Assembly (NCBI RefSeq): GCF_011045215.1
Contig: NZ_CP049201.1
Origin: Escherichia coli
GTDB taxonomy: Bacteria > Pseudomonadota > Gammaproteobacteria > Enterobacterales > Enterobacteriaceae
Length of the DNA: 64,000 nt
Strand: one strand, 5' to 3'
Each line of letters opens with the position of its first letter. The first letter of the stretch is position 1. Shown one piece after another: positions 1-24,467 of the stretch. Made by a program: the position numbers and the translations under genes. The notes under the pieces were generated by a model. That model was not told where the DNA came from. It searched no databases and saw only the letters and a program-made list of their open reading frames with translations.

Positions 1-936
1 CTCCCGTACCCCGAAGCCCCGTGTGATAAAGCGCACTTCCGCCCCCGCTTTCAGCAATACCGGTCGGCAGGGCAGCGTTATCGTCATCTGACGCCCCGCT
101 TTCTGCACCCGCTTTACCTTCGACTGTGCACAATGTTCTGCCGTGCCCTGGTCTGGCTGGGTGAAGGGATGACGCTTGTCTGTGGACTCCACATCCACTT
201 TAAGTTCACGCGTGCGACCATCAGACGGAGTAAAGTACCTGACACCAACCTTTCCCCCTTTTCCGCCTCCGGATGCCCCCTGCCGATCGCCCTCCCGGTA
301 ATCCCAGTCTGACACCATATCCGGTGTGATAGTCATCACAGGGGCATCCCTGCCTCCGGTACTCTGCGACGCACCATACTCCAGAAATAACCAGTAACCG
401 TTCGTCGGTTTACTGGTGGCACCGTACATCCCTGCAAGCCGGGAAAGCAGGGACGCATCCGACTCAGATGACTGCATCACCCACGGAATACGAATTTCCT
501 CCAGTACCGGAGATACCCGCGCCACCAGATTATTTTCAGTGGCGATCGTTTTTACCAGGTCACCCAGCGTGACATCGCTGAAGGCGCGGGTTTTCAGTGC
601 AGTCACATCTGCACCATGCCTGGACGCATTCATGGGGGCTGCGGTGGCATAAATGGTGATCCGGCGGGGAGGGCCACCGCTTGCCACCTGACAGACAGTA
701 AAGCTACCCTTATTCACCAGACGTCCGTTAAACCCCAGCCCCAGCGTTAATACTGCGCCTTTCGGTGGCAATGCCAGCGTTTCACTGAACAGCGTTATCA
801 TTAACTCATCAGCCCGCTTTGTGGCAGCACCATTATCGGTATAACGCAGTTCAGCCAGTCCGCGTTTTATTGCTTTCGTGATATCCTCGCCTTCCACCGT
901 CAGACTGAAATCCGGCTGATATTCATTCAGTCCCAT
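1..936 (-). CDS. Tail protein D-like (P2 gpD family), partial; C-terminus beyond window
   Basis: Minus frame open from ATG at 936 to window edge (MGLNEYQPDFSLTVEGEDIT...); follows U and X as in P2/phiCTX tail clusters. Confidence 0.55.
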   Translation of the reverse strand, partial: MGLNEYQPDFSLTVEGEDITKAIKRGLAELRYTDNGAATKRADELMITLFSETLALPPKGAVLTLGLGFNGRLVNKGSFTVCQVASGGPPRRITIYATAAPMNASRHGADVTALKTRAFSDVTLGDLVKTIATENNLVARVSPVLEEIRIPWVMQSSESDASLLSRLAGMYGATSKPTNGYWLFLEYGASQSTGGRDAPVMTITPDMVSDWDYREGDRQGASGGGKGGKVGVRYFTPSDGRTRELKVDVESTDKRHPFTQPDQGTAEHCAQSKVKRVQKAGRQMTITLPCRPVLLKAGAEVRFITRGFGVRE

Positions 937-1145
937 AACTGAAACGTCTCCTTCTCTTCCGGCTCATATGTCCAGTCCGGTAACACAATTTCCACCCCGG
1001 ACGGATACACCGGACCAAGGTCAGCCAGCCCGGGATTGGCTTCCAGTACCGCCGCCAGTGACTGGTTGAGCCCGGCGCTGCCGTAGTGTCTCTGACAGAT
1101 ATCATCCAGCATATCGCCGTCAGTGGTCCGCCAGTTTTTCGCCAT
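927..1145 (-). CDS. Tail protein X (LysM-like, P2 gpX family)
   Basis: 72 aa; ...AVLEANPGLADLGPVYPSGVEIVLPD... resembles P2 gpX; sits between U and D. Confidence 0.65.
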   Translation of the reverse strand: MAKNWRTTDGDMLDDICQRHYGSAGLNQSLAAVLEANPGLADLGPVYPSGVEIVLPDWTYEPEEKETFQLWD

Positions 1146-1614
1146 AGTATTTCAGCTCCAGTGTGAACGTTTTGTTTTTCGGCGCACCGCCGGGAAGAAA
1201 GGACGTGGTGTTATCTGAATAGGCGGTTACAACAAAATACCCCATCACATCCCCCGTCCCGGAAACCAGCAGATGCGGCGCAGGATTTTTATCCACCATC
1301 TGAACCAGCGTATCAAGGGCATCCATCCCCACACCGTCACGAAATCCCGCATGAACCATCCCTTCAAGGCTTATCGTTCTGGCCCCCTTACCGGTATACT
1401 GCAGCAGATCATTTTTTCCGATTAACTGCTGCTCATCCCATCGCCATTCCATGGTGCGCTTCATGGCGTTATACGCCGCTGAATCAATACTGAACTCAAA
1501 CTCACCAAACGACAGCATGACCCGCGAGGCCACATCGGTTAATGAACCAATCCTGTCCCATGCCCTGCGCTCAATCATGTTTGCGCCAAAGCCAACAAAA
1601 TCCACCATCATCAC
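1120..1614 (-). CDS. Tail protein U (P2 gpU family)
   Basis: 164 aa starting MMM..., gpU-like; immediately downstream of tape measure gene. Confidence 0.65.
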   Translation of the reverse strand: MMMVDFVGFGANMIERRAWDRIGSLTDVASRVMLSFGEFEFSIDSAAYNAMKRTMEWRWDEQQLIGKNDLLQYTGKGARTISLEGMVHAGFRDGVGMDALDTLVQMVDKNPAPHLLVSGTGDVMGYFVVTAYSDNTTSFLPGGAPKNKTFTLELKYYGEKLADH

Positions 1615-3266
1615 CCCCAGAATGCATAACTGTCGGTCATGCTGGCCCGCTGGCCAAAATCAATATCACCCAGATTTTTCGTCACCCTGTCTGCCAGCTG
1701 TCCGGCATCCTCGCCGGGCTTCTGGGTGAGGTTAAATTCAGCCCGTATCTGATACGTGGGTTTTACTTCCACCTGGCTGATACTGCCCGGAACGTAGTGA
1801 AGCGCAGAAAGAGGATCCGTTTTTTCCTGCCCCTGTTTTGTAGCGGGTGGGGTGTCATACTTCGCGAGGACATCAAGCGCTTTCTTTTCCCATCCGTCAA
1901 AGTCCGGATCGTCTTCTGGCCCCAGAAAAGGCTCGAGGGACGCCTCAAATTTTTTATCGTCATCACTCAGGAAACCGCGTGTGTCTGTATACGCCTTCAC
2001 AACCTGCTTCGTCAGATCGGGATTTTTTTTAAGCTGATCATCAAACCATTTATCCTGCCCGTTCCTCTTCGCCACTGCCCTTGCCAGCTCTGGCGAGCCT
2101 GTTTTTGCCAGATATTCCAGCACCTCACGCCGGTCACTCCGTGGATCTTCAGCCAGCCCCCACTCGATGGCCTTTTCAGTGAGCCCGGCAATGACTTTTC
2201 CAAAATTCCACGCCCAGGCCGTCACCTTGATCAACATCGGCAGCGCGTCCTCTCTGATAAATGTATTGATTTTTTCCAGCCCGCCGTTTTTAAACCAGTC
2301 CGCCAGGTCGTCCGTGACCTGCTGAATATTCGGTGCCAGCTCTTTCCCCAGCTGTCCACAGATTTCATCAATGGACGAACCCAGAACACCGGTGAGGTTT
2401 GAGACGGCGATATGTCCCCGGACGGCACCATCCGCCCCTTCCCTGGTCACCAGGTTATAGCGCTTCTGCTCCTCAATAAGCTCCCGGTAAGTTTTTCCTG
2501 ACAGACGCATCCAGGTCAGGATCTTATTACCCTCACCACCAAACAATGCATCCGCCATCCCGGCAGCCTTTTGTTCATCCTTCACCTGCAGCAATCGGTC
2601 AAAAAGAAATTCAACCTGCTCCTGGTTGTTTTTTCCCGCCATCGCCCCGGCTTTCAGCCCCAGCGCCCCGAAGACCTGCTGTATGGCACCTTTATCCGAT
2701 GCGCCATTATCATCATCAAAAACCTTGTTGCGGTACTCCTCAAACAGATCCCCGAAGTTTTCCCCGTTCAGCCCCATCTGCTTACCCAGCGAATCCCACG
2801 CTGCATACGTCTCATAATCCACACCGTAACTCCGGGCTATCCCTGCCCGCTCTGCAGTTTCACTGTTCCGGCTAAATGCTGCACCGGCAGCGCCTGCCAG
2901 TGTCAGTCCTGCCCCGACCGAAAGCCCTAACCCCGCTTTCAGAGCGGTCTTTCCACGCCCTTTCCAGCGTTCCAGACGTTCCGCACGTGCCAGCTTACGG
3001 TTAAATTTATCCTGCTCTCCGGTGGCATCATGAATTTTTTTGCCCAGCTTTTCATACTGCTTTCGCAGTTCAGTAATATCCTGCCCTGCCAGTACGCCAG
3101 CCTGAATTTTTCGTTTCAGTACATCCTGCTGGCGAGTCAGGCGAGCCACTTCCTGCGTTGCCCCTGATAATCCGTGCTTCAGTCCATCAACCGATTTTTT
3201 CCACGACGGATCTATCGTGCCGCCGATCCTGATATTCGCTTTCAGGTTATCGCCCACCGTTGCCAT
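1611..3266 (-). CDS. Tail tape measure protein
   Basis: 551 aa, coiled-coil N-terminus and Gly/Ala-rich hydrophobic segment; follows E/E' chaperone gene. Confidence 0.8.
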   Translation of the reverse strand: MATVGDNLKANIRIGGTIDPSWKKSVDGLKHGLSGATQEVARLTRQQDVLKRKIQAGVLAGQDITELRKQYEKLGKKIHDATGEQDKFNRKLARAERLERWKGRGKTALKAGLGLSVGAGLTLAGAAGAAFSRNSETAERAGIARSYGVDYETYAAWDSLGKQMGLNGENFGDLFEEYRNKVFDDDNGASDKGAIQQVFGALGLKAGAMAGKNNQEQVEFLFDRLLQVKDEQKAAGMADALFGGEGNKILTWMRLSGKTYRELIEEQKRYNLVTREGADGAVRGHIAVSNLTGVLGSSIDEICGQLGKELAPNIQQVTDDLADWFKNGGLEKINTFIREDALPMLIKVTAWAWNFGKVIAGLTEKAIEWGLAEDPRSDRREVLEYLAKTGSPELARAVAKRNGQDKWFDDQLKKNPDLTKQVVKAYTDTRGFLSDDDKKFEASLEPFLGPEDDPDFDGWEKKALDVLAKYDTPPATKQGQEKTDPLSALHYVPGSISQVEVKPTYQIRAEFNLTQKPGEDAGQLADRVTKNLGDIDFGQRASMTDSYAFWG

Positions 3267-3427
3267 AACGTCGCCGCCTCTCTTCCGATTCCTCCAGCAT
3301 CATTGACACAAAATCTGCATACGGCAGCGCCATCACATCTCCGGGAGACCACCCGAACCAGGCACCGGCGCGCCGTATCGCTGTCAGGATGCTGTCTTCT
3401 TCCGCCTGACCGGCGGCAGCAAAAAAA
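3247..3427 (-). other. Predicted -1 programmed frameshift extension (E+E')
   Basis: Coding-strand T TTT TTG at 3427-3421; -1 frame stays open 59 codons to a stop at 3249-3247, overlapping the tape measure start. Confidence 0.55.
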
Positions 3428-3686
3428 CATTAAACTGCCGCTCCAGGGCCAGGTAATCACACGCTTCCATATTCATCATGTCCGCCGCATCCATTCCGCA
3501 CAGGCCGGCTATCATATCCAGATCGGCTTCTGCTTCCGGCTTGGTACTCCGGCGATGTAACAGACGATCGCGGACGGTGGGTGCACGCATGGTGACATGC
3601 GAGATTGTCTGACCTGACGCAGTGACATACGGCACGGATAACACAATCTCCACGCTGCTGCAGGGAATACTGTTTATCTCTGGCAT
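3384..3686 (-). CDS. Tail assembly chaperone E (P2 gpE-like)
   Basis: 100 aa ORF between tube and tape measure genes; slippery heptamer near its 3' end. Confidence 0.6.
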   Translation of the reverse strand: MPEINSIPCSSVEIVLSVPYVTASGQTISHVTMRAPTVRDRLLHRRSTKPEAEADLDMIAGLCGMDAADMMNMEACDYLALERQFNVFLLPPVRRKKTAS

Positions 3687-3746
3687 ATTGATTTCCTCTT
3701 AAAAAGAAAAGGCGGCCTGAACCGCCTGAATGACCACTTCTCCGGA

Positions 3747-4265
3747 TCACACCCGGATAATTTTTTTCAGATCCGACAGCACATTCACACCGTTAATGCG
3801 CCGTACAAACTGCTCCGGAATAATGCAGATGGTCTCCAGTCCATCGACAGCCTGGCGGTAATAACTCAGTGACATTTCCACCGACACCGCTGCTTCTGCC
3901 TGCGAGGTGGACGGACGCGCATCCGGCGTGATACTGGTGATCATCCCCTGAAGGGTTTCCACCAGACCGCTTGTTGCACCGCCCACCTGATACGCCTGAC
4001 GGACAACAATTTCTGGCGAATAAATCCCTGCCTGCAATCCCAGCAGAGTCAGTATGGCCACGTCGTATCCGTAAATTTTAAACGAGCAGGTCAGCGCCTC
4101 CATACCGTCATCCACTGACACCGGCGCATCCATCGCACCGGTTTTGATGTCCACCTTCGTGATATTGATGGCCGGAGGCGTGTACTCATGTGCCCCCTGA
4201 AGGCGAATACCACCCGGCAGAAAGAGCGCCCATGCCCGTAGCAGTTTTTTTTCGCACGACATCAT
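3747..4265 (-). CDS. Tail tube protein (P2 FII-like)
   Basis: 172 aa, same length and position as P2 FII downstream of sheath. Confidence 0.75.
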   Translation of the reverse strand: MMSCEKKLLRAWALFLPGGIRLQGAHEYTPPAINITKVDIKTGAMDAPVSVDDGMEALTCSFKIYGYDVAILTLLGLQAGIYSPEIVVRQAYQVGGATSGLVETLQGMITSITPDARPSTSQAEAAVSVEMSLSYYRQAVDGLETICIIPEQFVRRINGVNVLSDLKKIIRV

Positions 4266-5737
4266 ACTGTCAGTTCCTCCTGTGCCAGTTTATTGTTGAT
4301 CATTGTACGCAGCGTCAGGCGTTCCAGTGGTGACTTCGGCCCGAAGTCATAGTCGATATACAACTGCCCGGCAGCCAGGGTTTCTGCTGTATTCAGTTCG
4401 TCGTTCAGCCATGCGCTACCACCGTGGATCGCGCCCAGATTTTTAAGCTGGCGCATGTAGGCATTAATACTGCCGAGAATATCGTCCGCAACATCCCGAT
4501 CAATCGGACGGTCAACATAAGGCAACATGGATTCCTGAACACTGTCTTCAATCACATCAGCCGTACGGCGCACGGACTCAAAGCGCAACTGGCTATGAGA
4601 TGTGCACAGGCGGTTACCCCAGTGTTTAAAACCGTCATGACGAATAATGGTGGAGATGTTTTCCATGTTCAGCAGATTTGCCGTGCAGTTCTGCTCCCCG
4701 AGAATAAATGTATCCACCTGCTCAAGACCGGTGATATTCATCACGTCCTGATTTGATTTGGACCACCACCATCCTTTTTCATAATCAATACGGGCACGCA
4801 GTCCGGCAGCGCGTGCCGAATACGGGCGAAACACTGTTTGTCCGCTGTCATCCGTCACCGACACGCGCGGACGAAGCAGTTCAACACGCCCACCAAATAA
4901 CGTCCGGCGCTGAACCACATCCTGCGGCGTTACCATTGAGGGGGAGTCAATATAGGCAACAGCCCGCAGTTTCGCGGCATACGTTTCCAGCGCCTTTGCC
5001 ACACCATCATCCTCGCTGTAGCCAGTGGCGACAAGAATACGCGGCTGGTAGCCTGTTACGCCTTTGCTCTTCGTCAGAGCTTCCATGGCCTTAATCACTG
5101 CGGCACGCTGTTCTGCCTCCTTCGCTTTCGGTTTGCTTTCCGCACGTACCACAATCACCAGCGCACCGGTCTGGTCAAAAATATCACGCAGGGCAGGATA
5201 CAGCGTTCCGGAAGCCCCCAGCTTTCCGGCCTGCGTGAGTGCCCCCGCCACCACCACCGGCGTATTAACCGGAAATGCCTCATCCTCACCGCCGGACAAC
5301 GTCAGGGTAAAGGGAGATACCACTCCTTCCCCGACAGAATCTGCATTCAGCATGCTGGTATCGGCCATCACCGGTGAATCCTCCAGCGCATTCACAACCT
5401 CCTTCACACGTGACGCAGTGGCATTCGTCTCACCATGTTCATCTGTGCCCAGTGTGATCGTCAGGGTGTTTCCCTCCAGAGCCGCGGTTGTCTCTGCGTT
5501 TTGCTGCGTGCTTCCGTTGGCCACAACTGAAATCTCATTGCCGGACCGCCCGGCTTTTTTCGCTGTAAAATCCAGCGCGGAACTCAACAACCATGATCCG
5601 GCAGTACCGGAAGCACACACACCGCCGGAGGCGTCCGGCGCTGTCCCCACGAGGCCAATCACTGCCGTGGAGACGGTCTGCACGGCCACCGTGCCTGTCG
5701 TCAGTTCAATGGTTTCCACACCATGTAGTCCGGACAT
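4262..5737 (-). CDS. Contractile tail sheath protein (P2 FI-like)
   Basis: N-terminus MSGLHGVETIEL...VSTAVIGLVGTA and C-terminus ...LYIDYDFGP...LTLR resemble P2 FI; ORF track start 5824 is probably an upstream extension. Confidence 0.85.
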   Translation of the reverse strand: MSGLHGVETIELTTGTVAVQTVSTAVIGLVGTAPDASGGVCASGTAGSWLLSSALDFTAKKAGRSGNEISVVANGSTQQNAETTAALEGNTLTITLGTDEHGETNATASRVKEVVNALEDSPVMADTSMLNADSVGEGVVSPFTLTLSGGEDEAFPVNTPVVVAGALTQAGKLGASGTLYPALRDIFDQTGALVIVVRAESKPKAKEAEQRAAVIKAMEALTKSKGVTGYQPRILVATGYSEDDGVAKALETYAAKLRAVAYIDSPSMVTPQDVVQRRTLFGGRVELLRPRVSVTDDSGQTVFRPYSARAAGLRARIDYEKGWWWSKSNQDVMNITGLEQVDTFILGEQNCTANLLNMENISTIIRHDGFKHWGNRLCTSHSQLRFESVRRTADVIEDSVQESMLPYVDRPIDRDVADDILGSINAYMRQLKNLGAIHGGSAWLNDELNTAETLAAGQLYIDYDFGPKSPLERLTLRTMINNKLAQEELTV

Positions 5738-5792
5738 ACATTTCTCCCATAAAAAAACCGCCCCTGAGGCGGTCAGTTGATTTACTTCTTTT

Positions 5793-6338
5793 TCAGGTGT
5801 TTTGTGGAGGTACTGGCCACTCAATGGCGTTATATGAGGTTTTATCAGTGATGGTGCTGAAATCCATCGCCTGCAGCGATTTCGCGTAAATGCGGTACGC
5901 TTTCAGCTTTTCCCTGTCCTCGTCGCTGATTAATCCCAGCAACAGGTCTTTTTCCCATTCGCTGGTCATTATACTGACCTGTTTTAACAGGGCATCACGC
6001 TCGTCTTCCGCTTTAAGTTTGTAGTCGAAAACAAATTCATCATTGCGGTAAAACCAGTAGCCTGATGCTTCAATGCGACGATTAGCGGTAATATCCGGCA
6101 ACTCAATCACGCTTTTATTTTCCGGGCAGATTGAGGTGATGTCTTTTCCGACCCAGACCACTTCGCCAGTTTCAACATAAATAACTTTCAGGGTGTCTGG
6201 TAGAAATTTTTCCTGGGCTTCGTGCCATTCCTGTCCATCATCTGAGAACAGCCACAATAAAAATTTATGCTGTCGCGCCAGCTGGTATTGCTCAATTGTT
6301 TTAGGGTTTTGTACCGTAATATTTTTTAAGTGCATCAT
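5793..6338 (-). CDS. Tail fiber assembly protein (Tfa/gpG-like)
   Basis: 181 aa directly downstream of tail fiber gene; C-terminal ...IEWPVPP typical of Tfa chaperones. Confidence 0.6.
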   Translation of the reverse strand: MMHLKNITVQNPKTIEQYQLARQHKFLLWLFSDDGQEWHEAQEKFLPDTLKVIYVETGEVVWVGKDITSICPENKSVIELPDITANRRIEASGYWFYRNDEFVFDYKLKAEDERDALLKQVSIMTSEWEKDLLLGLISDEDREKLKAYRIYAKSLQAMDFSTITDKTSYNAIEWPVPPQNT

Positions 6339-6340
6339 GA

Positions 6341-7714
6341 TTACAAACTCGCTACATTTCTCCAGACGCCATTAATCAGAACCTGCACCGGGCGTGCATT
6401 GGCCCAGTCCACACTTTCACCGCCATCAACACCACTCAGTAAATGACCTGATGGCGCATTTCCCCCGCGTCCAATACCAATGGCGCTTCCCAGACGTACA
6501 TCCTGCACGCCGCCTGTTTTGGTCTGATAGCGGGCATCAAAGTTTCCGTAGTTTGATGGAGTTATCTGCCCATTTACAGCGAATGTGACGCTACCGTCTG
6601 TATTTCTCTGACTGTAGAAATGCCAGCCGGAATCATCACCAAGCTCTGCAACTACAGGTCTGGATGGATTACCCCATAAATTAAACCCTACGTTCTTCGT
6701 GGAGCTGTTGGAGCTGGATAGCGTGAATTTTTTACTATCCCCGGCCTGAACGTTTTTAAAAGCAATAGCAACTCCATTCTGAAAGCGAAATACGCGCTGA
6801 TTATTAGCATAAACATCCAGAATGCCGTCGCCGTTTTGTTTTATACCTGTATCGTTATCACCGAGAGTAATAGAATTACCACCCAATGCGTTATTCGTAC
6901 CAAGCGCCAGCCCACCATCAATTTTTGCACCGTGGCTGACTGATATAGCGCCTGTTCTCAGATTTATAGCAAATGGCCTTAATGGGCCGATATCACCGTT
7001 TTCGCCCCGTCCTTCAGACGTCGGGATAAAATGAAGATATTCTTCCGAACGACGAAAAATCAGGCCAAAAGCATCGTCGAAAATTCGCAGCGCATTCACC
7101 GTGCCAATTTTCAGCTCCCCGGTCATGGTGTCACCACCGCGCTGAACGGCATTTTTCGCTTTATCCACCGTAGGTTTTAATCCGAGGTTATCAACCGCTT
7201 CATCTTTATCTTCCACATCGGCAAGATTCTCGCCGATGCGCAGATAGCGTTTATCTCCGGCCTCCTGCGTGATAATCGCCCTGTGAGGATCCACCTCCAG
7301 CGTCACACTCTGTGTATGTGTAAGCGCAAGAACCAGTGTCAGTATCACCTCCTTGATAACGGAATCCGTCTGTGCCGGTAAATACGTATCCGGATAACGA
7401 CCATACGCAATCAGCGTGCCACGGCGACTCACCATCCCCAGCTCGCGCAGGGTCTTTCCCGGGTATGACTGACAGTCAATGACAATATCCCCGCTGATAA
7501 AACCTTCGTCCACCACGCCGCCTGAAAAGGGCTCCCGACCAAACTCACCACACAACATGACCATCGCCGCCATCTCATCCGGCGTTGAGGGCAGTGTTTT
7601 CCCGCCCCCGTCACCAATCATCACCTGACTGATGGTCACCACCTCACCGGCATGATATGCAGCTTCAATTTCGGCTGCCCCGGCTGTTGTCAAAACTAGT
7701 CCATGCATACCCAC
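6341..7714 (-). CDS. Tail fiber protein (P2 gpH-like N-terminus)
   Basis: 457 aa; conserved gpH-type N-terminal domain, Gly/Asn-rich distal part. Confidence 0.75.
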   Translation of the reverse strand: MGMHGLVLTTAGAAEIEAAYHAGEVVTISQVMIGDGGGKTLPSTPDEMAAMVMLCGEFGREPFSGGVVDEGFISGDIVIDCQSYPGKTLRELGMVSRRGTLIAYGRYPDTYLPAQTDSVIKEVILTLVLALTHTQSVTLEVDPHRAIITQEAGDKRYLRIGENLADVEDKDEAVDNLGLKPTVDKAKNAVQRGGDTMTGELKIGTVNALRIFDDAFGLIFRRSEEYLHFIPTSEGRGENGDIGPLRPFAINLRTGAISVSHGAKIDGGLALGTNNALGGNSITLGDNDTGIKQNGDGILDVYANNQRVFRFQNGVAIAFKNVQAGDSKKFTLSSSNSSTKNVGFNLWGNPSRPVVAELGDDSGWHFYSQRNTDGSVTFAVNGQITPSNYGNFDARYQTKTGGVQDVRLGSAIGIGRGGNAPSGHLLSGVDGGESVDWANARPVQVLINGVWRNVASL

Positions 7715-7717
7715 AAC

Positions 7718-8299
7718 TCACTCCACCCACTCATCCCGGATACCCCGGGTATCATCAGCACTGATACCACTGACTTTTTCTGTTGCCATCACATAACCGT
7801 AACCAAAAATACGCCCCCTGCTGTTTCCGTAAAGATGAACACTGAACCAGCTGCGCAGATTTTTGGCACGGAGCACCGCATGCTTCAGATCCTGATAGTC
7901 ATTCATCTGTACCGGTAAATCCTTCTGCTCCACATTCAACCGGAAGGTATAGGGTTCACCTGGTGGCGTCTGCTCATACCACTCCACAATCTGTGACCGG
8001 AACGGGCTGTCTGTCAGTGATTCGTTCAGAGCGGCTTTTGTTCCCCGGTGACGATGGATATAAGCGGCACGTTTTATCGCCGCTCTTTTTTCCGCCTCCG
8101 TCCAGTGTTCATTCCAGGCGTCCACCGACATTTCCCAGGCCAGCCATGGCAGCAATTCCGTCGGACATAAATCGGGATTTTTTACATAGCGGATCAGACA
8201 GACCGCGATTTCCGCCAGCATATCACCGGCGGTACTGTCCACCACCCGCTCTGCCCGGCTGGCGCTGACAGGAAGTATGCTTCTGATGATGTCATTCAT
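7718..8299 (-). CDS. Baseplate/tail formation protein I
   Basis: 193 aa between J and tail fiber, as in P2. Confidence 0.65.
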   Translation of the reverse strand: MNDIIRSILPVSASRAERVVDSTAGDMLAEIAVCLIRYVKNPDLCPTELLPWLAWEMSVDAWNEHWTEAEKRAAIKRAAYIHRHRGTKAALNESLTDSPFRSQIVEWYEQTPPGEPYTFRLNVEQKDLPVQMNDYQDLKHAVLRAKNLRSWFSVHLYGNSRGRIFGYGYVMATEKVSGISADDTRGIRDEWVE

Positions 8300-9206
8300 C
8301 GGTTGCCTCCACCTTGTTCAGTGTGACTGAGCGACACCATGGAGCCTGTCCCATCGCCGGAACAATATCACTGGCCGGCGATTTCAGTGCCACCGTAATC
8401 ACCCCCGTCTGATGCAGGGCTCCGTCCATACCGGAGCAGGACGCCACAGAACCAATCCGGTGAACACTGTCAGTGTATGTCTGCAGCGCCTGACGGGCAT
8501 TTTTCATCACCAGTTCACCATCCAGCCCGTAGGGAATATGAATATCTGCAACCACATCGTAGAGAATAATTTCTGCCGCACGGACACTGACAAAATCCGT
8601 CAGAGGTCGAATTTCATCATCATTGACTGACGCTGCCACCTTATCCAGCAGGGGTTGCGATGCCGTACCGTTTCCGGTTCGCGATAACACATAAAGAAAA
8701 ACACGCCCTTCCTGTGAATGCGTTTCCGGCCCGTAGGCTTTCACATCCAGCACATCAGGATCAGCACTCTGTGCAAAATAATGGTAAGCATTTTTCGCAC
8801 CGGCTGTACTGAGTCGCGCCCACGACAACTGAATACGCTCACGAAAGGCATCATCCCCTTCATACACCGCCGGTGTGGGCGGGATAGTGCTGTCATCTGC
8901 CGGAGTAATCACCAGACGTTGCACCTGAAAATTCGCACCAATCTGATCCAGATCGTTCCTGCGGGCACTGGCAAGCAGTACAGCCCGGACTGCATCATTG
9001 ACCTGCTGGCGCATCAGCGCCACCCGAAAAGCAAGCGCCTCCGCCCATTTATACGCCGGATCTGATTCCACCAGGGCCGAAAACAACGTGTCCAGTTCCT
9101 GATATTTCGCCACTATCTGAGTGACCAGCACAGCGGTGTCCGGCACCTCCACCGCATCCGGTACAGGTATCGCGGACAAATCAATAATGGCCTGAGACGT
9201 TGTCAA
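8292..9206 (-). CDS. Baseplate assembly protein J
   Basis: 304 aa, gpJ-like, between W and I. Confidence 0.8.
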   Translation of the reverse strand: MTTSQAIIDLSAIPVPDAVEVPDTAVLVTQIVAKYQELDTLFSALVESDPAYKWAEALAFRVALMRQQVNDAVRAVLLASARRNDLDQIGANFQVQRLVITPADDSTIPPTPAVYEGDDAFRERIQLSWARLSTAGAKNAYHYFAQSADPDVLDVKAYGPETHSQEGRVFLYVLSRTGNGTASQPLLDKVAASVNDDEIRPLTDFVSVRAAEIILYDVVADIHIPYGLDGELVMKNARQALQTYTDSVHRIGSVASCSGMDGALHQTGVITVALKSPASDIVPAMGQAPWCRSVTLNKVEATDE

Positions 9207-9537
9207 TTCTGATTTCCTCCAGACGAATTGTTTCCTGTGTTTCGTTATTCACGCCCAAAAGCGTCAACATGACATTTCCCTCACCGCCGAAGCTCACCTC
9301 CACACGGCGGATCGTCAGTCTCGGTTCCCAGCGTTCAAGAGCGGTAACCGTCTCACGGACAATCCTCACCCGTGTGAAATCATCCTGCGGGTTATCAAGC
9401 AGACTGAACAACCTGCTGCCGTATTCCCTGAGAAGTACCCGGCTGCCGACTGGTGTTGACAAAATATCGGTGACGGACTGACGCAGATGTTCGTTACCGT
9501 GCAGATATCTGCCGGTGGCGGAATCAATACCAATCAT
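9181..9537 (-). CDS. Baseplate protein W (GPW/gp25 family)
   Basis: about 118 aa from MIGIDSATGRY...; between V and J. Confidence 0.7.
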   Translation of the reverse strand: MIGIDSATGRYLHGNEHLRQSVTDILSTPVGSRVLLREYGSRLFSLLDNPQDDFTRVRIVRETVTALERWEPRLTIRRVEVSFGGEGNVMLTLLGVNNETQETIRLEEIRIDNVSGHY

Positions 9538-9571
9538 GAAATTTTTCCGAAAAAAAACGCCGGTGCGGCGT

Positions 9572-10195
9572 TCACATTTCCTGGTTAGGTTTACGGGTGG
9601 TTCCCCCGCTGTCGCCAGGGTGATCATGAGTATTATAAATTTCGCGAATTTTACTCATGCTGCCGGTTTTATCGGTGATCTCCTGTGAGGCACCGATATT
9701 GCCCAGAACCTGCGTATCGGCATTAATCTTCGTTTCTCCCTGCACAGTCAGGGTATCCGTGATTTCCACCGGACCGTCCAGCGTTCCCCTGCCGGTGATT
9801 TTATAGCTGCCGCTTTCAGCCAGCGTGATGGACAGGGCATTGGCTTTACGGTCGTAACGGATTTCCGTTCCGGTATCAAACAAAATAACATGCTCGTGTT
9901 CACTGCCCGCCGGTACAGGAATGGCGTCAATATTCGCCCCCGGATACACACGACCGTTACGCAGATCGCCCGCCTCCGATATCACCGTGACCGCATCTCC
10001 TGGTGCCGGGTAATTACTGACCTGCATGTAACGCCCGGACTGCATCTGAATCCAGGGCAACGGCGGCGAAAGCACATCTCCGATATCCACCCGAACCATC
10101 ACCGGGTTACCCGGGATCACCTCTTCCACCACGCCGCGACGGATCATGTCCGCCACCCTGCGGCGTAACTCTGCCACTTCATCCGCCAGACTCAT
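9572..10195 (-). CDS. Baseplate spike/assembly protein V
   Basis: Start MSLADEVAELRRRVADMIRRG... resembles P2 gpV N-terminus; ORF track 5' extension to 10354 unlikely to be coding. Confidence 0.75.
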   Translation of the reverse strand: MSLADEVAELRRRVADMIRRGVVEEVIPGNPVMVRVDIGDVLSPPLPWIQMQSGRYMQVSNYPAPGDAVTVISEAGDLRNGRVYPGANIDAIPVPAGSEHEHVILFDTGTEIRYDRKANALSITLAESGSYKITGRGTLDGPVEITDTLTVQGETKINADTQVLGNIGASQEITDKTGSMSKIREIYNTHDHPGDSGGTTRKPNQEM

Positions 10196-10711
10196 CGCCG
10201 GTGCCCTCCGCTTTCCAGATAAGACGATAATCCTGCACATGCTTTTTACCGGTTTCCGGTACTTTACCCAGCCAGACTTCCTGTAACGGCACACCTGCCG
10301 GAGCCGCAAACGGATCTTCGCCGACCGGAATGTCCTGTTCAAAAGAGAAAGCAAACAAACAAGATAATAAGTTGAATTTAAAGGAATAAAAAAGGCATCA
10401 TTTTTGCTTTTGGTACAAATTCTAGTCCGTATAAACGCGGAAAAATCCGCTAAATTAAGATAAAAAAGATGCTTAGATAGTTACTATGTTTAGCTTCATG
10501 GCTACGGGGAGTAAGTTTGCTCTTTGCTTAATCTCGGTTATGGAAATCCCCATATCGGCATCATGCCCACCAGCGTGACGCATTTTTTTTAATTTCGCGG
10601 GTATAAAAATTTGACGAGGCGGGCGGTCCCATAAGCAATGGGGTGTAGGGATTCCGATCCCCCTGGGGGGGGTATTAAACACCCACCCTATTTAAATACC
10701 GTCTTTTTTGT

Positions 10712-10757
10712 CACTGTGTGTCACTGGTTGTCACTCTCCGTCACGGTATGCCACCAT
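10712..10757. repeat. Clustered GTCAC(T) direct repeats
   Basis: tgtcactgtgtgtcactggttgtcactctccgtcacgg: four copies within 46 bp in a noncoding stretch between tail and island. Confidence 0.6.
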
Positions 10758-10760
10758 AAG

Positions 10761-21433: not shown

Positions 21434-21898
21434 TTATTGAATAAGAAGAAAAACAAAAAGAAACGGTAACGAAAGATAATGATTGCATAGTCCAAAAGAG
21501 ACACGGAAAACGATGTAGTCGTCCAGCAGTCGGTCGAAGGTATCCACCTCAGCATCAATAAAAACCGCCGGATCAACGTTATCCAGCCCGAACGTGGCTC
21601 CATCAATCCAGTCAGATAAATCCATTGCCAGACAGCGGGCAAATATCTGCGGTTTTGGCACGTTTTCCGTCTTTCCGGCCCGATCAGTCACCACAAACAG
21701 ATCGCATTTCAGCGTGACCCGTGTCTGCCCGTCGGCAAACTGAGCCTTGTCCCAGCCGGGTACATCCACAAACACGGCAGGCGTCACCAGTTGCGTCACT
21801 TTTTCCGGGTACTCATCGGCATCTTCCACCCAGGGAATTTGTTTCAGACTGTCAATCACTGCCTGATGCCAGGTTCCCATCATCAATGGTTCCATCAT
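21434..21898 (-). CDS. Putative tail-completion/head-tail adaptor-like protein, C-terminus atypical at island junction
   Basis: 154 aa after Z-like gene; last about 20 residues (LCNHYLSLPFLFVFLLIQ) are low-complexity and read into the A-rich junction next to island int. Confidence 0.4.
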   Translation of the reverse strand: MMEPLMMGTWHQAVIDSLKQIPWVEDADEYPEKVTQLVTPAVFVDVPGWDKAQFADGQTRVTLKCDLFVVTDRAGKTENVPKPQIFARCLAMDLSDWIDGATFGLDNVDPAVFIDAEVDTFDRLLDDYIVFRVSFGLCNHYLSLPFLFVFLLIQ

Positions 21899-22617
21899 TC
21901 CATCCCCTTAAATACCCGGAATTTCAGTTCATGCTCAAAATTTTTCAGGATCAGTGCTTCCGCATCAGGGAAAACAAAATCCTCTATACGGTTCAGCATG
22001 GCTTCATAAATATCAATTTCCGCTTCGCGCACCCTTCGTCGTCCGGATGCCTGCCGGACCAGTACCGTCTTACGTCGTGAAATGCGTCCGCGCCGGTTTT
22101 CAGACTCAAACTCATTAACAAAAGCCTCGTCACCTGACCAGGTGGTGACCGGTATTGCCTCCCCGGCGGGCTTAAAACGTATCTCCGGCGCTTTCCTGCG
22201 ACGGGAAGCCGGTGCAAAACGCCCCCGTTCATCACGCAGCTGATGGCGTTCACCGCGTCGCCCCCCACTGATGCGTCCGCGCAGATCACGCACTTTGATG
22301 GCGTTCAGGCCGAACCACACCTTTACCTCATCAAACTCATCGCCATTTCGACGAATGATAAAAGCATTCAGGACACGTTTTTTGATCATTTTCTGGCTGC
22401 GTGGCGCAACCTGTTTTTTAAACTCTGCCATGGCCTTCATCCGCAGTGCGGACGCGGCTCTTTTCAGCGCCACGCCCCAGGCTTTACGGATCTGGCTTTT
22501 TGAACCACCCAGTTTAGCGATAATTTTCAGCACATCATCCTCGTCAATATCGACGACGAGGTTTCGTGCCAGCCGTCGCTGCCGGACAGTGCTTCGTTCA
22601 TGCTCTCTGACTGTCAT
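21895..22617 (-). CDS. Head-tail joining/virion morphogenesis protein (gpZ-like position)
   Basis: About 240 aa basic protein following FII-like gene. Confidence 0.45.
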   Translation of the reverse strand: MTVREHERSTVRQRRLARNLVVDIDEDDVLKIIAKLGGSKSQIRKAWGVALKRAASALRMKAMAEFKKQVAPRSQKMIKKRVLNAFIIRRNGDEFDEVKVWFGLNAIKVRDLRGRISGGRRGERHQLRDERGRFAPASRRRKAPEIRFKPAGEAIPVTTWSGDEAFVNEFESENRRGRISRRKTVLVRQASGRRRVREAEIDIYEAMLNRIEDFVFPDAEALILKNFEHELKFRVFKGME

Positions 22618-23005
22618 AACGTTTACTCGGTCGGACAGGGGCGGCGGGTGTACTTCTTCCGGGTTCTCCCCGCGCAAGAGTAATGGTAATCACACCATGA
22701 CCCGCAGTGCCTGACTCATCCCAGCCAGGATCGACCACCTGGTAGGGTTCGCCGTGGATCATGACCCTGTCATATTTTTTCAGTCCGGCAACCCATGCGC
22801 TCCGGGTAAATAACACCGGTGCAGTATCACGAATTTCGCCGCTGCCAGTGTTCATCCCGGTGTTATCTGCCGGGGCATCAAAAACAGCACGGATTTTTCT
22901 TTCCGTGCCGCCCGGATATATGCTGATTTCCGTCCCCATCGTATCCAGGATGATGTCATCCGCATCACTCATGGCCTGATCGAACAGATTATCGGACATC
23001 ATCAC
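22598..23005 (-). CDS. Head-tail connector protein (lambda FII-like)
   Basis: N-terminus MMMSDNLFDQA... resembles gpFII; follows FI-like gene. Confidence 0.55.
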   Translation of the reverse strand: MMMSDNLFDQAMSDADDIILDTMGTEISIYPGGTERKIRAVFDAPADNTGMNTGSGEIRDTAPVLFTRSAWVAGLKKYDRVMIHGEPYQVVDPGWDESGTAGHGVITITLARGEPGRSTPAAPVRPSKRYDSQRA

Positions 23006-23388
23006 TCCCGGATTTTTTCTGCCAGACCATCCGCCAGCAACGCAGGAACTGTGGCTTCATTAACCAGCACAACACTGGAGGCCCGGGCGAACATCAACAT
23101 TTTGCCCGTCACCGCATCACGGGACGGCATATGTGCCGTTTTCAGCATGCGCACCCGAACGAGTCCCCGCTCAGAATACACCTCATTACGGGCATCCCCT
23201 CCGGATGCATCACGCTGTTCATCATGCACATCATCCTGTTCTGTCCCTTCCCCATCGAATCCGGCGGCCTCCTCTTCCCATTCCGCCAGGCGCTGTTCAA
23301 GATCGGCTTTTGAACCTGAAATATCTGCTTCACGCCCCAGAATCTCTGCCAGCTCCTGCAGGCGTTCAGTCATCTGCTCTTTTGTCAT
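23002..23388 (-). CDS. DNA packaging protein (lambda FI-like)
   Basis: Start MTKEQMTERLQELAE...; acidic linker; position after E as in lambda. Confidence 0.6.
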   Translation of the reverse strand: MTKEQMTERLQELAEILGREADISGSKADLEQRLAEWEEEAAGFDGEGTEQDDVHDEQRDASGGDARNEVYSERGLVRVRMLKTAHMPSRDAVTGKMLMFARASSVVLVNEATVPALLADGLAEKIRE

Positions 23389-23438: not shown

Positions 23439-24467
23439 TTATTTCACCTGAACCACCACAAACGCGTCCGGATCCGGCAACACCATCAACGGCGCAGACT
23501 GCGTCATGGTATATTCGCACCCCGGGTCCCCCACCTCTAACCAGTGTTTCGGATAACGAATTGCAGAGGTGATCCCTTCACTCAGCGCCTGGTTATCCTG
23601 GATTGCGCCATAACAACGGACACCCTCCACCTGAGTGTTTCCAAGAATCAGTGTGCCTTCCGGCAGATAACGCTGCTCATCCCCGTTTTCATCAACATAC
23701 GTTGTTTTCGCCACCATGATGGCCAGATCACCGTAATAACCTTTAAAAGAAACCACGGAACCCAGATCTTTCAGCGCGGTTTCCAGTTCAGATTTTGAGC
23801 CACGGCGGGTATCCAGTTTTTCACGAAACAGCTTAAAACCGTTCAGCATACGCCAGACAGTACCGTCCATAATCGCAATATTGATGGTACCGGAAGCAAA
23901 ATCGCAGTACGCATCCAGATCATGCGTCGGATCAAAGGTGTCAGCATTCTGTTTTGACCATTCGCGTCCCCCTGCCTGCGTTATGTTATTGGCGGCAGAA
24001 CGTCCAAAATCCACTTCCACCGTCTCAAACTGTTCACCGCTCATGGTGTACTTACCCTGCAGAACAGCGCTGACCGCCTGCATTTCTTCCACCTGCACAA
24101 TCGCCTGCTCTTCCTGTTTCAGGTTATCAGTCAGAATACGCAGGCGACGGTAGGCCGGGTCATTAAGACGGGCCGGATCTTCCCCCGGAAGACGCTCCAC
24201 CGCCTGCTGATAATCCAGCCGGTGTTTTGGTTTAACATAGCCGGGGCGTAACACGCGGGTTTCACCACCACGACTGCGCAGTACCTTACCTGACACAACC
24301 GGAGACACATATGCCGCAACCGGTGTTTTTCCGGTGATTTTATCCAGCATCACTTCCTGAGTATGGAAAGTGACCGTACGACGAAAAAACAGCTCCAGAA
24401 ACAGCGCACGGAATTTCACTTTCTGCTCGGTGTAGCCGAGCAACTGACGCGTGGTAAATAACCCCAT
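23439..24467 (-). CDS. Major capsid protein (lambda gpE-like)
   Basis: ...AAYVSPVVSGKVLRSRGG...PGYVKPKH...VQVEEMQAVSAVLQGKYTMSGE...DTRRGSKSELETALKDLG very close to lambda E as recalled. Confidence 0.9.
   Translation of the reverse strand: MGLFTTRQLLGYTEQKVKFRALFLELFFRRTVTFHTQEVMLDKITGKTPVAAYVSPVVSGKVLRSRGGETRVLRPGYVKPKHRLDYQQAVERLPGEDPARLNDPAYRRLRILTDNLKQEEQAIVQVEEMQAVSAVLQGKYTMSGEQFETVEVDFGRSAANNITQAGGREWSKQNADTFDPTHDLDAYCDFASGTINIAIMDGTVWRMLNGFKLFREKLDTRRGSKSELETALKDLGSVVSFKGYYGDLAIMVAKTTYVDENGDEQRYLPEGTLILGNTQVEGVRCYGAIQDNQALSEGITSAIRYPKHWLEVGDPGCEYTMTQSAPLMVLPDPDAFVVVQVK

What the first reader, a model, noticed from the sequence alone, without database searches (positions are those of the whole stretch)
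1..10354. Chimeric virion architecture: lambda-type head module followed by a P2/phiCTX/R-pyocin-type contractile tail module, no lambda tail genes
Head genes are lambda-like through FI/FII, but no V, G, T, H, M, L, K, I, J siphovirus tail genes follow. The next structural block is V W J I H tfa sheath tube E/E' T U X D, the order I associate with P2-like phages and R-type pyocins. All are on the same strand as the head genes, consistent with one late transcript, interrupted only by the island.
Basis: partly seen in the sequence, partly recalled or inferred. Interest (0 to 1): 0.5.

Follow-up and report, generated by a model that had tools for sequence, protein, structure and literature searches.

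The report
Lambda-head, P2-tail lambdoid prophage
This is the tail half of one E. coli prophage that pairs a lambda-type head with a P2/R-pyocin-type contractile tail, a real but already documented kind of phage mosaic; the only unusual feature is a satellite island inserted in its tail-terminator gene.

Summary
Window 1-10354 (minus strand) encodes a complete P2/R-pyocin-type contractile tail set in the order V W J I H tfa sheath tube E/E' T U X D. D is cut by the window edge.

Upstream on the same strand lies a lambda-type packaging and head set: Nu1 A W B C D E FI FII. No lambda tail genes and no P2 head genes occur anywhere in the window.

The 11.15-kb island sits inside the terminator gene, not between modules.

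Head, neck and tail belong to one element:
- 72 of 5426 complete E. coli genomes carry the same head-neck-tail junction contiguously, without the island.
- In E. coli SA53-3 one integrase and one ompW att pair enclose the whole arrangement.

The architecture is not new. Lambda/P2 chimeras have been described since 2001 (Wolbachia WO phages, Xylella XfP1/XfP2), and WOVitA1 shares homologues of both halves. E. coli, Hafnia and Citrobacter relatives are deposited.

The island is a helper-embedded PICI, a kind described in 2023. Its integrase is only distantly related (27% identity) to the founder of that clade.

Verdict: an ordinary new member of a known kind, of low interest.

The parts
1..936 (-). 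gpD-like tail hub / late control D protein; N-terminal 312 aa, C-terminus beyond the window edge
   Evidence: phrog_52 E 5.6e-83; 40% aa identity to P2 D; the full gene is 1077 bp in C5 and SA53-3
927..1145 (-). gpX-like tail protein X
   Evidence: phrog_46 E 1.4e-23; 48% aa identity to P2 X
1120..1614 (-). gpU-like tail protein
   Evidence: phrog_76 E 8e-45; 32% aa identity to P2 U
1611..3266 (-). Tape measure protein, 551 aa
   Evidence: phrog_3654 E 1e-203 plus tape-measure PHROGs; 40-41% aa identity to the yong2 and Chris1 counterparts; no BLAST match to P2 T
3247..3686 (-). Tail assembly chaperones E (3384-3686) and E+E' (-1 frameshift at T_TTT_TTG, 3420-3426; 146 aa)
   Evidence: phrog_166 E 9e-23; slippery heptamer and open -1 frame; same heptamer at the annotated frameshift site of P2
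3747..4265 (-). Tail tube (FII-like)
   Evidence: phrog_55 E 3e-32; TIGR01611 69 bits, below its 102.75 cut-off; 23% aa identity to P2 FII
4262..5737 (-). Tail sheath (FI-like), 491 aa
   Evidence: phrog_23 E 1.4e-108; 37% aa identity to P2 FI and 61-62% to yong2 and Chris1
5793..6338 (-). Tail fibre assembly protein (G-like)
   Evidence: phrog_136 E 9e-54; 95% aa identity to the phiP27 tail fibre assembly protein
6341..7714 (-). Tail fibre (H-like, tail-collar N-terminus)
   Evidence: phrog_6859 and phrog_4618; 52% aa identity to the C-terminal part of P2 H; the stretch from the end of this gene through most of tfa (5815-6564) is 92.5% identical in DNA to phiP27
7718..8299 (-). Baseplate protein I
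   Evidence: TIGR01634 tail_P2_I above cut-off; phrog_48
8292..9206 (-). Baseplate protein J
   Evidence: phrog_4226 E 1e-65; 41% aa identity to P2 J
9181..9537 (-). Baseplate wedge protein W (gp25-like)
   Evidence: phrog_43 E 4e-38; 38% aa identity to P2 W
9572..10195 (-). Baseplate spike / assembly protein V
   Evidence: TIGR01644 phage_P2_V above cut-off; phrog_9992
10179..10348 (-). 3' fragment of the split tail-terminator gene
   Evidence: Identical to the C-terminal part of the intact 183-aa gene of E. coli C5
10349..21501 (-). 11.15-kb helper-embedded PICI-type island. Genes: int 20087-21418, BRO-N 19239-19820, RepA-family helicase 15367-16782, SSB 14495-14917, E-like capsid 12975-14030, D-like decoration 12635-12964, Nu1-like TerS 11311-11895. 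Flanked by a 9-bp CAAAAGAGA repeat.
   Evidence: Junction mapping against C5; PHROGs; SSB named from the RefSeq annotation of the homologous gene in SA53-3; same insertion site in SA53-3 and CFIAFB20180511
21502..21883 (-). 5' fragment of the split tail-terminator gene (phrog_1072)
   Evidence: AlphaFold model of the intact protein has mean pLDDT 74. Foldseek best matches are the Mu tail terminator 9khy (E 1.6e-7), the pyocin R2 collar 6u5j/6u5f and lambda gpU.
21895..22617 (-). 240-aa neck protein (tail completion / Neck1 class)
   Evidence: phrog_27 E 5e-26; 39-40% aa identity to yong2 and Chris1; no Pfam, PDB or fold match
22598..23005 (-). gpFII-like head-tail joining protein
   Evidence: phrog_82; matches lambda gpFII 1k0h, E 1.4e-7
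23002..23388 (-). gpFI-like DNA packaging chaperone
   Evidence: phrog_92 E 3.6e-32; no BLAST match to lambda FI
23439..24467 (-). Lambda E-type major capsid protein
   Evidence: phrog_2353 and phrog_29; 59% aa identity to lambda E
24538..24873 (-). Lambda D-type head decoration protein
   Evidence: phrog_49; 50% aa identity to lambda D
24914..26395 (-). Lambda C/Nu3-type S49 protease and scaffold, with a 138-bp x 2.5 tandem repeat
   Evidence: phrog_53 E 2e-204; 54% aa identity to lambda C; tandem repeat
26382..27953 (-). Lambda B-type portal
   Evidence: 62% aa identity to lambda B
27950..28159 (-). gpW-like head-tail adaptor
   Evidence: 47% aa identity to lambda W
28163..30079 (-). Lambda A-type large terminase
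   Evidence: 66% aa identity to lambda A; about 75% DNA identity to lambda and phage 21
30051..30560 (-). Nu1-type small terminase
   Evidence: 42% aa identity to lambda Nu1
36929..37318 (-). Q-like antiterminator, the presumed late-gene regulator (context)
   Evidence: phrog_79 E 9e-45
53176..54306 (+). Prophage integrase next to ompW, marking the right end of the prophage (context)
   Evidence: phrog_7244 and phrog_1; ompW flank and att duplication at 54350-54477

Best explanation
Window 1-10354 is the tail-morphogenesis half of the late gene set of a single lambdoid prophage integrated at ompW in E. coli. Its predicted virion is a myovirus.

Predicted parts of the virion:
- Packaging and head are lambda-type: Nu1/A terminase, W adaptor, B portal, C/Nu3 protease-scaffold, D decoration, E capsid, FI and FII.
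- The tail is P2/R-pyocin-type: spike V; baseplate W, J and I; fibre H with chaperone tfa; sheath; tube; frameshifted chaperones E/E'; tape measure T; U; X; hub D.
- The two halves are joined through a neck made of the lambda-like FII, a Neck1/tail-completion-class protein, and a hexameric-type tail terminator with the Mu / pyocin R2 collar / lambda gpU fold.

Regulation (inferred): the tail genes have no P2-style regulator. They are probably read as the distal part of one Q-antiterminated late transcript running through lysis, head, neck and tail.

In this copy an 11.15-kb helper-embedded PICI is integrated, co-oriented, inside the terminator gene. Complete tails, and therefore head-tail joining, should require its excision, which would restore the gene exactly.

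Shown here: the gene content, order and strand; homology of each half; the fold of the terminator; the frameshift signal; contiguity of head, neck and tail in relatives; one att pair in a relative.

Inferred, not shown: actual virion morphology, the single late transcript, and dependence on island excision.
For: - Tail homologies.
- Head homologies.
- E/E' frameshift signal identical to that of P2.
- Terminator fold.
- No lambda tail genes, and no P2 head, R, S or ogr genes in the window.
- Q-like antiterminator, holins and endolysin upstream on the same strand.
- Three terminator-like hairpins inside the tail block on the sense strand (V|W, tfa|sheath, tube|E). The tail genes downstream of them would be transcribed from the late promoter only if the polymerase is termination-resistant.
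- Island-free contiguous head-neck-tail in E. coli C5 (99.4-99.9% identity) and E275a, and in 72 of 5426 complete E. coli genomes.
- The same count of 72 genomes carries the tail block.
- SA53-3 has the same composite at ompW. The integrase is at one end. A displaced ompW 3' fragment lies beyond D plus two extra fibre genes at the other end.
- The neck proteins co-occur with this sheath type in phages yong2, Chris1, Valp1 and 705R4.
- Wolbachia phage WOVitA1 shares homologues of A, B and C and of terminator-V-W-J and sheath-tube-E-U-X-D.
Against: - No virion of this E. coli lineage with an E-type capsid has been seen. The deposited vB_EcoM-705R4-type records are in-silico prophage calls.
- The isolated relatives yong2 and Chris1 have a different capsid gene type (ClpP-capsid fusion) and a different tail gene order.
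- The left prophage end of this very copy is outside the window.
- The terminator gene is split here, so as it stands the prophage cannot express an intact terminator.
- The 240-aa neck protein has no structural assignment.
- C5 and E275a show neighbouring prophage or IS rearrangements, so some copies may be defective.
Confidence: 0.85

Rival explanations
1. Two adjacent elements: a tail-less lambda-like prophage next to a separate P2-like prophage remnant or R-type tailocin cluster that excises or acts on its own.
For: The tail gene order equals that of R2 pyocin (own knowledge). P2-type tail clusters do occur without heads as tailocins (PMC2647930). The left end of the element is outside the window.
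Against: - The junction is gene-tight and scar-free in C5, with V overlapping the terminator gene.
- 72 genomes carry the junction and 72 carry the tail block.
- One integrase and one ompW att pair enclose everything in SA53-3.
- There is no second integrase apart from that of the island, whose att sites flank only 10349-21501.
- There are no lysis or regulator genes of tailocin type in the tail block.
Confidence: 0.03
2. A defective or cryptic prophage. The architecture is real, but this copy (or the lineage) no longer makes infectious particles. The genes persist as a fossil or are kept for another use, for example as a helper for the PICI or for tailocin-like killing.
For: - The terminator gene is interrupted.
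- C5 and E275a copies are flanked or invaded by other prophages and an IS66 element.
- 705R4 is a 27-kb record without early genes and with a split D gene.
Against: - All other head and tail ORFs in the window are full length compared with relatives.
- Q, lysis, replication, repressor and integrase genes are present.
- The interruption is by a precisely bounded integrative island that recurs at the same site in other genomes. This is the pattern described for excisable helper-embedded PICIs (PMC10111431).
Confidence: 0.12
3. A recent, one-off recombinant unique to this genome, formed by illegitimate recombination between a lambda-like and a P2-like prophage.
For: Phage mosaicism is common. The fibre genes are clearly exchanged with phiP27.
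Against: - The same layout is found at 84-99% identity in 72 E. coli genomes.
- It is found at 26-63% aa identity in 705R4.
- The tail side plus neck is present in Hafnia and Citrobacter phages.
- Both halves are present in Wolbachia WOVitA1.
- The tail proteins are only 23-52% identical to P2, so this is not a recent P2 graft.
Confidence: 0.01

Closest known systems
Lambda/P2 chimeric temperate phages: Wolbachia WO phages (WOVitA1, WOCauB, WORiC) and Xylella XfP1/XfP2
   Same: Lambda-like terminase, portal and C protease are followed by neck genes, then P2-like V W J (I), plus sheath-tube-E-T-U-X-D. The literature describes these explicitly as a lambda/P2 hybrid (PMC3235987). WOVitA1 has homologues of A, B, C, the terminator (directly upstream of V, as here), V, W, J, sheath, tube, E, U, X and D at 24-45% aa identity.
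   Different: - The host is an alphaproteobacterial endosymbiont.
- In WO the tail is split into two separated modules.
- WO has a PAAR gene between V and W.
- Regulation is not lambdoid Q, cI or N type.
- No BLAST-detectable E, D, FI, FII or 240-aa neck homologue was found in WOVitA1.
Escherichia phage vB_EcoM-705R4 and its sibling records (ON470624 etc.)
   Same: Identical gene order from Q through lysis, TerS, TerL, W, B, C, D, E, FI, FII, neck and terminator to V W J I H tfa sheath tube E T U X D. Homologues are 26-63% identical in amino acids.
   Different: It is a diverged lineage, for example 48% identity in the sheath and 55% in the capsid. The records are computational prophage predictions of 20-27 kb lacking early genes. 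No island is present.
Hafnia phage yong2 and Citrobacter phage Chris1
   Same: Lambdoid regulation, with lambda-type terminase, W and portal. They share the same FII, 240-aa neck, terminator and V arrangement and the same tail protein families at 40-62% aa identity.
   Different: The capsid is a ClpP-protease/capsid fusion type rather than separate C, D and E genes. The tail gene order is V-sheath-tube-E-T-U-X-D-W-J-I-H, with the baseplate after the tail core. TerL and portal are only about 25% identical.
Phage P2 / phiCTX (Peduoviridae) and R-type pyocins
   Same: The tail gene families V, W, J, I, H, G, FI, FII, E/E' (same TTTTTTG slip site), T, U, X and D are shared. The order equals the R2 pyocin order, with X between U and D (own knowledge). 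The terminator fold matches the R2 collar protein.
   Different: - There are no P2 head genes, no ogr, and no BLAST-detectable R or S.
- The V-G and FI-D blocks are fused into one unit, without the P2 intergenic late promoters or the fun(Z) gene.
- X is relocated relative to P2.
- The sheath is about 100 aa longer and the tape measure shorter (551 against 815 aa).
- Unlike a pyocin, the block is attached to a head module.
Phage lambda / phage 21 (Lambdavirus)
   Same: Nu1-A-W-B-C-D-E-FI-FII order. Nu1 to E are 42-66% identical in amino acids and FII is 33% identical. A, B, C and E are about 75% identical in DNA to lambda and phage 21. Q-type late regulation is present.
   Different: No Z, U, V, G/T, H, M, L, K, I or J homologues were found by BLAST. 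The tail terminator resembles gpU only in fold.
Helper-embedded PICIs (Tommasini, Mageeney and Williams 2023; founder Eco567.11capE); this applies to the island only
   Same: An 11-kb EcCICFT073-like PICI carrying its own E-like capsid and D-like decoration genes. [quoted passage not shown]
   Different: - The integrase is only 27% identical to the 11capE integrase.
- The doubled TGTATTGC arm motif is absent.
- The target is the tail terminator of a contractile-tailed helper.
- Its identity block was not found in the paper's att alignments.

Membership tests
Lambda-type head/packaging module | Homologues of Nu1, A, W, B, C(Nu3), D, E, FI and FII in that order on one strand | tested here: met
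   42-66% aa identity to lambda for Nu1, A, W, B, C, D and E and 33% for FII. FI rests on phrog_92 only. FII matches 1k0h. Order taken from the ORF map.
Lambdavirus-like siphovirus (whole virion) | Non-contractile tail genes Z, U, V, G/T, H, M, L, K, I, J | tested here: not met
   tblastn of the lambda tail proteins against the window gave no hit at E <= 0.01.
P2/R-pyocin-type contractile tail module | Baseplate and spike proteins V, W, J, I, with fibre H and chaperone G | tested here: met
   TIGR01644 and TIGR01634 above their cut-offs; PHROGs; 28-52% aa identity to P2.
P2/R-pyocin-type contractile tail module | Sheath FI, tube FII, tape measure T, U, X and D | tested here: met
   PHROGs. 23-48% aa identity to P2 for FI, FII, U, X and D. 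T rests on PHROG matches only. The tube is below the TIGR01611 cut-off.
P2/R-pyocin-type contractile tail module | E/E' chaperone pair made by a -1 frameshift at TTTTTTG just upstream of T | tested here: met
   T_TTT_TTG at 3420-3426. The -1 frame is open for 57 codons and ends 20 nt into T. P2 has the same heptamer at its annotated site. Frameshifting itself was not shown.
P2/R-pyocin-type contractile tail module | Tail completion/terminator proteins R and S | tested here: inconclusive
   No BLAST homologue of P2 R or S. The 183-aa protein upstream of V has the tail-terminator fold, with best matches to the Mu terminator and the pyocin R2 collar. The 240-aa protein remains unassigned.
Peduoviridae (P2-like phages) | P2-type head genes Q, P, O, N, M, L and the Ogr late activator | tested here: not met
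   No tblastn hits in the window. No ogr is annotated beyond D in SA53-3.
R-type tailocin | Tail cluster without capsid/packaging genes, released as headless particles | tested here: not met
   The tail block is contiguous with a full head module inside one att-bounded prophage. Particle type was not testable.
Lambdoid phages (regulatory sense) | Q-type antiterminator upstream of lysis and late genes, with repressor, replication and integrase modules | tested here: met
   phrog_79 Q-like protein at 36929-37318, holins and endolysin at 32223-33640, replication protein, repressor-like protein, RecE and integrase. Function was not tested.
Lambda/P2 chimeric phages (WO type) | Lambda-like terminase, portal and C together with P2-like V/W/J and sheath/tube/U/X/D in one phage genome | tested here: met
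   Literature definition (PMC3235987). Pairwise homologues in WOVitA1.
Helper-embedded PICI (island only) | [quoted passage not shown] | tested here: met
   Gene content int / BRO-N / Icd / DUF4222 / helicase / SSB / capsid / decoration / TerS.
Helper-embedded PICI (island only) | Integrase of the 11capE clade, and the doubled tgTGTATTGCantgTGTATTGCa motif flanking the attP core | tested here: not met
   27% aa identity to the 11capE integrase. The motif is absent at up to 3 mismatches, while it is present in the 11capE control. No phylogeny was made.

The most novel reading that the evidence does not exclude
The most novel reading still open concerns the island rather than the chimera. The embedded PICI may use an integrase lineage outside the described HE-PICI clade: it is 27% identical to the founder and lacks the clade-specific arm motif. 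That lineage would have evolved independently to target the tail-terminator gene of contractile-tailed lambdoid prophages. Helper embedding would then have arisen more than once. Here it would gate tail completion and head-tail joining, rather than capsid or packaging functions, until the satellite excises.
Probability: 0.35. Interest if true: 0.4.

Novelty: new member of a known kind. Interest (0 to 1): 0.15.

Why it matters
It matters little in itself. It is a clean example of modular phage evolution, in which a lambda-type head is joined to a P2-type contractile tail through a generic FII / Neck1 / terminator neck. The lineage is present in about 1.3% of complete E. coli genomes but seems not to have been isolated or imaged.

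It is useful for prophage annotation, because such elements should not be split into a 'lambda-like remnant' plus a 'P2-like remnant' or tailocin.

The satellite embedded in the tail-terminator gene adds a further target gene to the helper-embedded PICI phenomenon, and possibly a further integrase lineage.

Tried and rejected
- Megablast of the tail block against the phage collection found only the fibre cassette shared with phiP27. phiP27 itself has an HK97-type head and a Mu-type tail, so it is not a model for this architecture.
- Pfam on the two neck proteins gave nothing.
- The 240-aa neck protein modelled poorly (pLDDT 58). Neither its Foldseek search nor its PDB profile search gave a meaningful match.
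- BLAST of E' against the P2 E' gave no significant match. The frameshift assignment rests on the heptamer, its position and the open frame.
- A literature search for 'lambda-like head' with 'contractile tail' returned nothing. Other term sets found the WO/Xylella and Pf-5 papers.
- I tried to find reference 47 of the SatelliteFinder paper by text search without success. The HE-PICI paper was then found directly.
- I searched the HE-PICI supplements for this att core and for the accessions. The only match was unrelated, so I cannot say whether this site is one of their 14.
- WOCauB2 is not in the collection, so WOVitA1 was used instead.
- The idea of a separate tail element or tailocin was considered and rejected on contiguity and att evidence.
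- No tRNA genes are present in the window.

Full report
**What is in the sequence**

All relevant genes are on the minus strand. Reading in the direction of transcription, the window holds the following.
- A Q-like antiterminator at 36929-37318 (phrog_79).
- Two holins and an endolysin at 33640-32223.
- A lambda-type packaging and head set: Nu1 30051-30560, A 28163-30079, W 27950-28159, B 26382-27953, C/Nu3 24914-26395, D 24538-24873, E 23439-24467, FI 23002-23388, FII 22598-23005.

Seven of the nine head proteins (Nu1, A, W, B, C, D, E) are 42-66% identical to their lambda counterparts, and FII is 33% identical. The A, B, C and E genes are about 75% identical in DNA to lambda and phage 21. 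FII matches solved lambda gpFII (1k0h, E 1.4e-7). FI gave no BLAST match to lambda and is assigned from phrog_92 alone (E 3.6e-32).

**The tail block**

- V 9572-10195
- W 9181-9537
- J 8292-9206
- I 7718-8299
- H 6341-7714
- tfa 5793-6338
- sheath 4262-5737
- tube 3747-4265
- E 3384-3686
- T 1611-3266
- U 1120-1614
- X 927-1145
- D 1-936, cut by the window edge

PHROGs assigns every one to the expected tail family. V and I pass the curated NCBIfam cut-offs of the P2 V and P2 I models. Eleven of the thirteen (all except E and T) have BLAST homologues in P2 at 23-52% aa identity, and none has a homologue in lambda.

The E gene ends with the slippery heptamer T_TTT_TTG at 3420-3426. The -1 frame stays open for 57 further codons and stops 20 nt inside T, giving a 146-aa E+E' product. 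P2 has the same TTTTTTG at its annotated frameshift site.

A reverse check was made with tblastn of lambda Z, U, V, G, H, M, L, K, I, J and stf, and of P2 Q, P, O, N, M, L, R, S and ogr. It found nothing in the 64 kb.

Two genes lie between FII and V.
- One is 21895-22617 (240 aa). It falls in phrog_27, 'tail completion or Neck1 protein'. It has no Pfam, PDB-sequence or fold match, and its model was poor, with pLDDT 58.
- The other is a 183-aa gene that is split in this window.

Aligning the island-free locus of E. coli C5 (99.8-99.9% identity) maps the island to 10349-21501, flanked by a 9-bp CAAAAGAGA repeat. The gene's 5' part is 21502-21883 and its 3' part is 10179-10348. Joining the two window junctions reproduces the intact C5 sequence.

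An AlphaFold model of the intact protein has mean pLDDT 74. Its best Foldseek matches are the Mu tail terminator (9khy, E 1.6e-7), the pyocin R2 collar protein (6u5j and 6u5f), lambda gpU and T5 p142. It is therefore the tail terminator. The island sits inside this gene, not between modules.

**One element or two**

It does not.
- In E. coli C5 and E275a the head, neck and tail genes are contiguous and gene-tight, with V overlapping the terminator gene.
- A 5-kb query spanning J to E with the island removed is found in one piece in 72 of 5426 complete E. coli genomes. The same number carry the tail block.
- The window's right end is a prophage integrase next to ompW in an E. coli chromosomal context.
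- In E. coli SA53-3 a collinear relative (84-93% identity), with a 95%-identical island at the same site, occupies the same locus.
- There, gene D is followed by two more fibre-related genes and two regulators. Next comes a displaced ompW 3' fragment that matches window 54350-54477, and then yciE. One integrase and one att pair thus enclose head, island and tail.

**How it most likely works**

The virion should be a myovirus with a lambda-type, cos-packaged, D-decorated E capsid.

On the head side, W and FII complete the portal vertex as in lambda. On the tail side, a P2-type baseplate (V spike; W, J and I wedges; H fibres folded with tfa) nucleates tube polymerisation. The tube grows around the tape measure with the E/E' chaperones, and the sheath assembles around the tube. 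The terminator caps the tail and offers the surface that FII binds. The 240-aa protein occupies the Neck1/tail-completion position. This is the generic neck arrangement shared by lambda and Mu. It explains why the two modules can be combined: only the contact between FII and the terminator has to fit.

In the phage collection the 240-aa protein was found in only nine records. All the named ones also appear among the matches to this sheath type: yong2, Chris1, Valp1, the 705R4 group and phiRSP. The terminator has homologues in yong2, Chris1, 705R4 and WOVitA1. The neck proteins therefore appear to travel with the tail module, which places the module boundary at FII.

No P2-type regulator is present, and the V-G and FI-D blocks are fused. 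Three terminator-like hairpins lie on the sense strand inside the tail block, at V|W, tfa|sheath and tube|E. Expression as the distal part of a Q-antiterminated late transcript is the economical inference, but it was not shown.

The shorter tape measure (551 against 815 aa in P2) predicts a shorter tail.

**Comparison with what is known**

Lambda/P2 hybrids are an established category. Masui et al. (2001) described Wolbachia WO phages as lambda-like in packaging and head and P2-like in baseplate and tail. Xylella XfP1 and XfP2 are cited as further examples (PMC3235987). A chimeric prophage with an R2-pyocin-like tail is described in Pseudomonas fluorescens Pf-5 (PMC2647930).

I checked the WO case directly. 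WOVitA1 has homologues of this prophage's A, B and C, of the terminator (placed directly upstream of V, as here), and of V, W, J, sheath, tube, E, U, X and D, at 24-45% identity.

Among enterobacterial records:
- Escherichia phage vB_EcoM-705R4 has exactly the same gene order from Q to D, at 26-63% aa identity. It is an in-silico prophage record.
- The isolated phages Hafnia yong2 and Citrobacter Chris1 share the neck and tail at 40-62% identity. Their capsid gene is of a different type and their baseplate genes follow the tail core.

The element fails membership of Peduoviridae (no P2 head genes, no ogr), of lambda-type siphoviruses (no lambda tail genes) and of tailocins (a head module is attached).

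**The island**

The island carries a P4-type integrase, a BRO-N protein, a RepA-family helicase, an SSB, a lambda-E-like capsid gene, a D-like decoration gene and a Nu1-like small terminase. The Icd-like, DUF4222 and SSB names come from the RefSeq annotation of the SA53-3 copy.

This is the EcCICFT073 type of PICI, which is known to carry capsid and decoration homologues (PMC6092414). Its placement, co-oriented inside a helper late gene, is the 'helper-embedded PICI' configuration of Tommasini, Mageeney and Williams (PMC10111431). In that configuration the interrupted late gene cannot be expressed until the satellite excises.

The same terminator-gene site is used in SA53-3 and CFIAFB20180511. 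A related island sits in the terminase A gene of another prophage in TUM9812.

Unlike the described clade, this integrase is only 27% identical to the founder 11capE integrase. The clade-specific doubled TGTATTGC motif is absent, although I recovered it in 11capE as a control. The att core was not found in the paper's att alignments.

**Verdict**

The architecture is a documented, widespread and evidently old phage lineage rather than a surprising chimera. The novelty is that of a new member of a known kind, and the interest is low.

The most interesting residue is the satellite in the tail-terminator gene, with an integrase outside the described helper-embedded clade. That remains a variation on a published theme.

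Noticed in passing
window 10349-21501 (split gene 10179-10348 and 21502-21883): An 11.15-kb EcCICFT073-like PICI is embedded, co-oriented, inside the helper prophage's tail-terminator gene, flanked by a 9-bp CAAAAGAGA repeat. It carries its own E-like capsid, D-like decoration and Nu1-like TerS genes. The same site is used in E. coli SA53-3 and CFIAFB20180511. Its integrase is only 27% identical to the founder HE-PICI integrase, and the doubled TGTATTGC motif is absent.
   Followed up: partly
L013 (E. coli TUM9812, NZ_CP128926.1 2821751-2837364): A closely related island (about 95% identity over 82% of the query) is integrated inside the large terminase (gpA) gene of a lambda-like prophage. 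Relatives of this island therefore occupy at least two different helper late genes.
   Followed up: no
window 5815-6564: The stretch from the end of the tail-fibre gene through most of the tail-fibre assembly gene is 92.5% identical in DNA to Stx2e phage phiP27, and the tfa protein is 95% identical. phiP27 has an unrelated HK97-type head and Mu-type tail, so the receptor-binding cassette has been exchanged recently.
   Followed up: partly
window 25060-25409: A 138-bp (46-aa) tandem repeat of 2.5 copies lies in the scaffold (Nu3-like) part of the C protease gene. The gene differs in length from its C5 and E275a homologues by 135 bp (1482 against 1617 bp).
   Followed up: partly
window 9555-9573, 5756-5774, 3710-3727 (minus strand): Three strong terminator-like hairpins followed by T runs lie on the sense strand inside the tail operon, at V|W, tfa|sheath and tube|E. 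They may set the relative amounts of the tail proteins or require Q-modified polymerase for read-through.
   Followed up: no
window 34191-36913: Two genes lie between the Q-like gene and the lysis genes: a 348-aa DNA methyltransferase (minus strand) and a 336-aa ORF of unknown function on the opposite strand (phrog_6191). This is the position where lambdoid phages carry cargo genes.
   Followed up: no
window 54350-54477; L011 5881-6009: The prophage is integrated at the 3' end of ompW. The window's ompW end is 81% identical to the displaced ompW fragment at the far end of the SA53-3 prophage, which is the usual phage-borne replacement of the target gene's end.
   Followed up: partly
L011 2247-4828 (SA53-3); L004 14977-16916 (E275a); outside the window: Relatives carry a second fibre gene ('prophage tail fiber N-terminal domain' protein) plus a DUF4376 protein downstream of gene D. 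These contractile-tailed phages may therefore have two fibre sets. The window ends before this region.
   Followed up: no
window 10411-10430 and 21333-21355: A repeated TACAAATT(N0-4)TCTAGTCC element occurs near both island ends, about 70 bp from the crossover core at the left end and about 150 bp from it at the right end. These are candidate arm-type integrase or AlpA binding sites. Their spacing resembles the motif geometry reported for HE-PICIs, but the sequence is different.
   Followed up: partly
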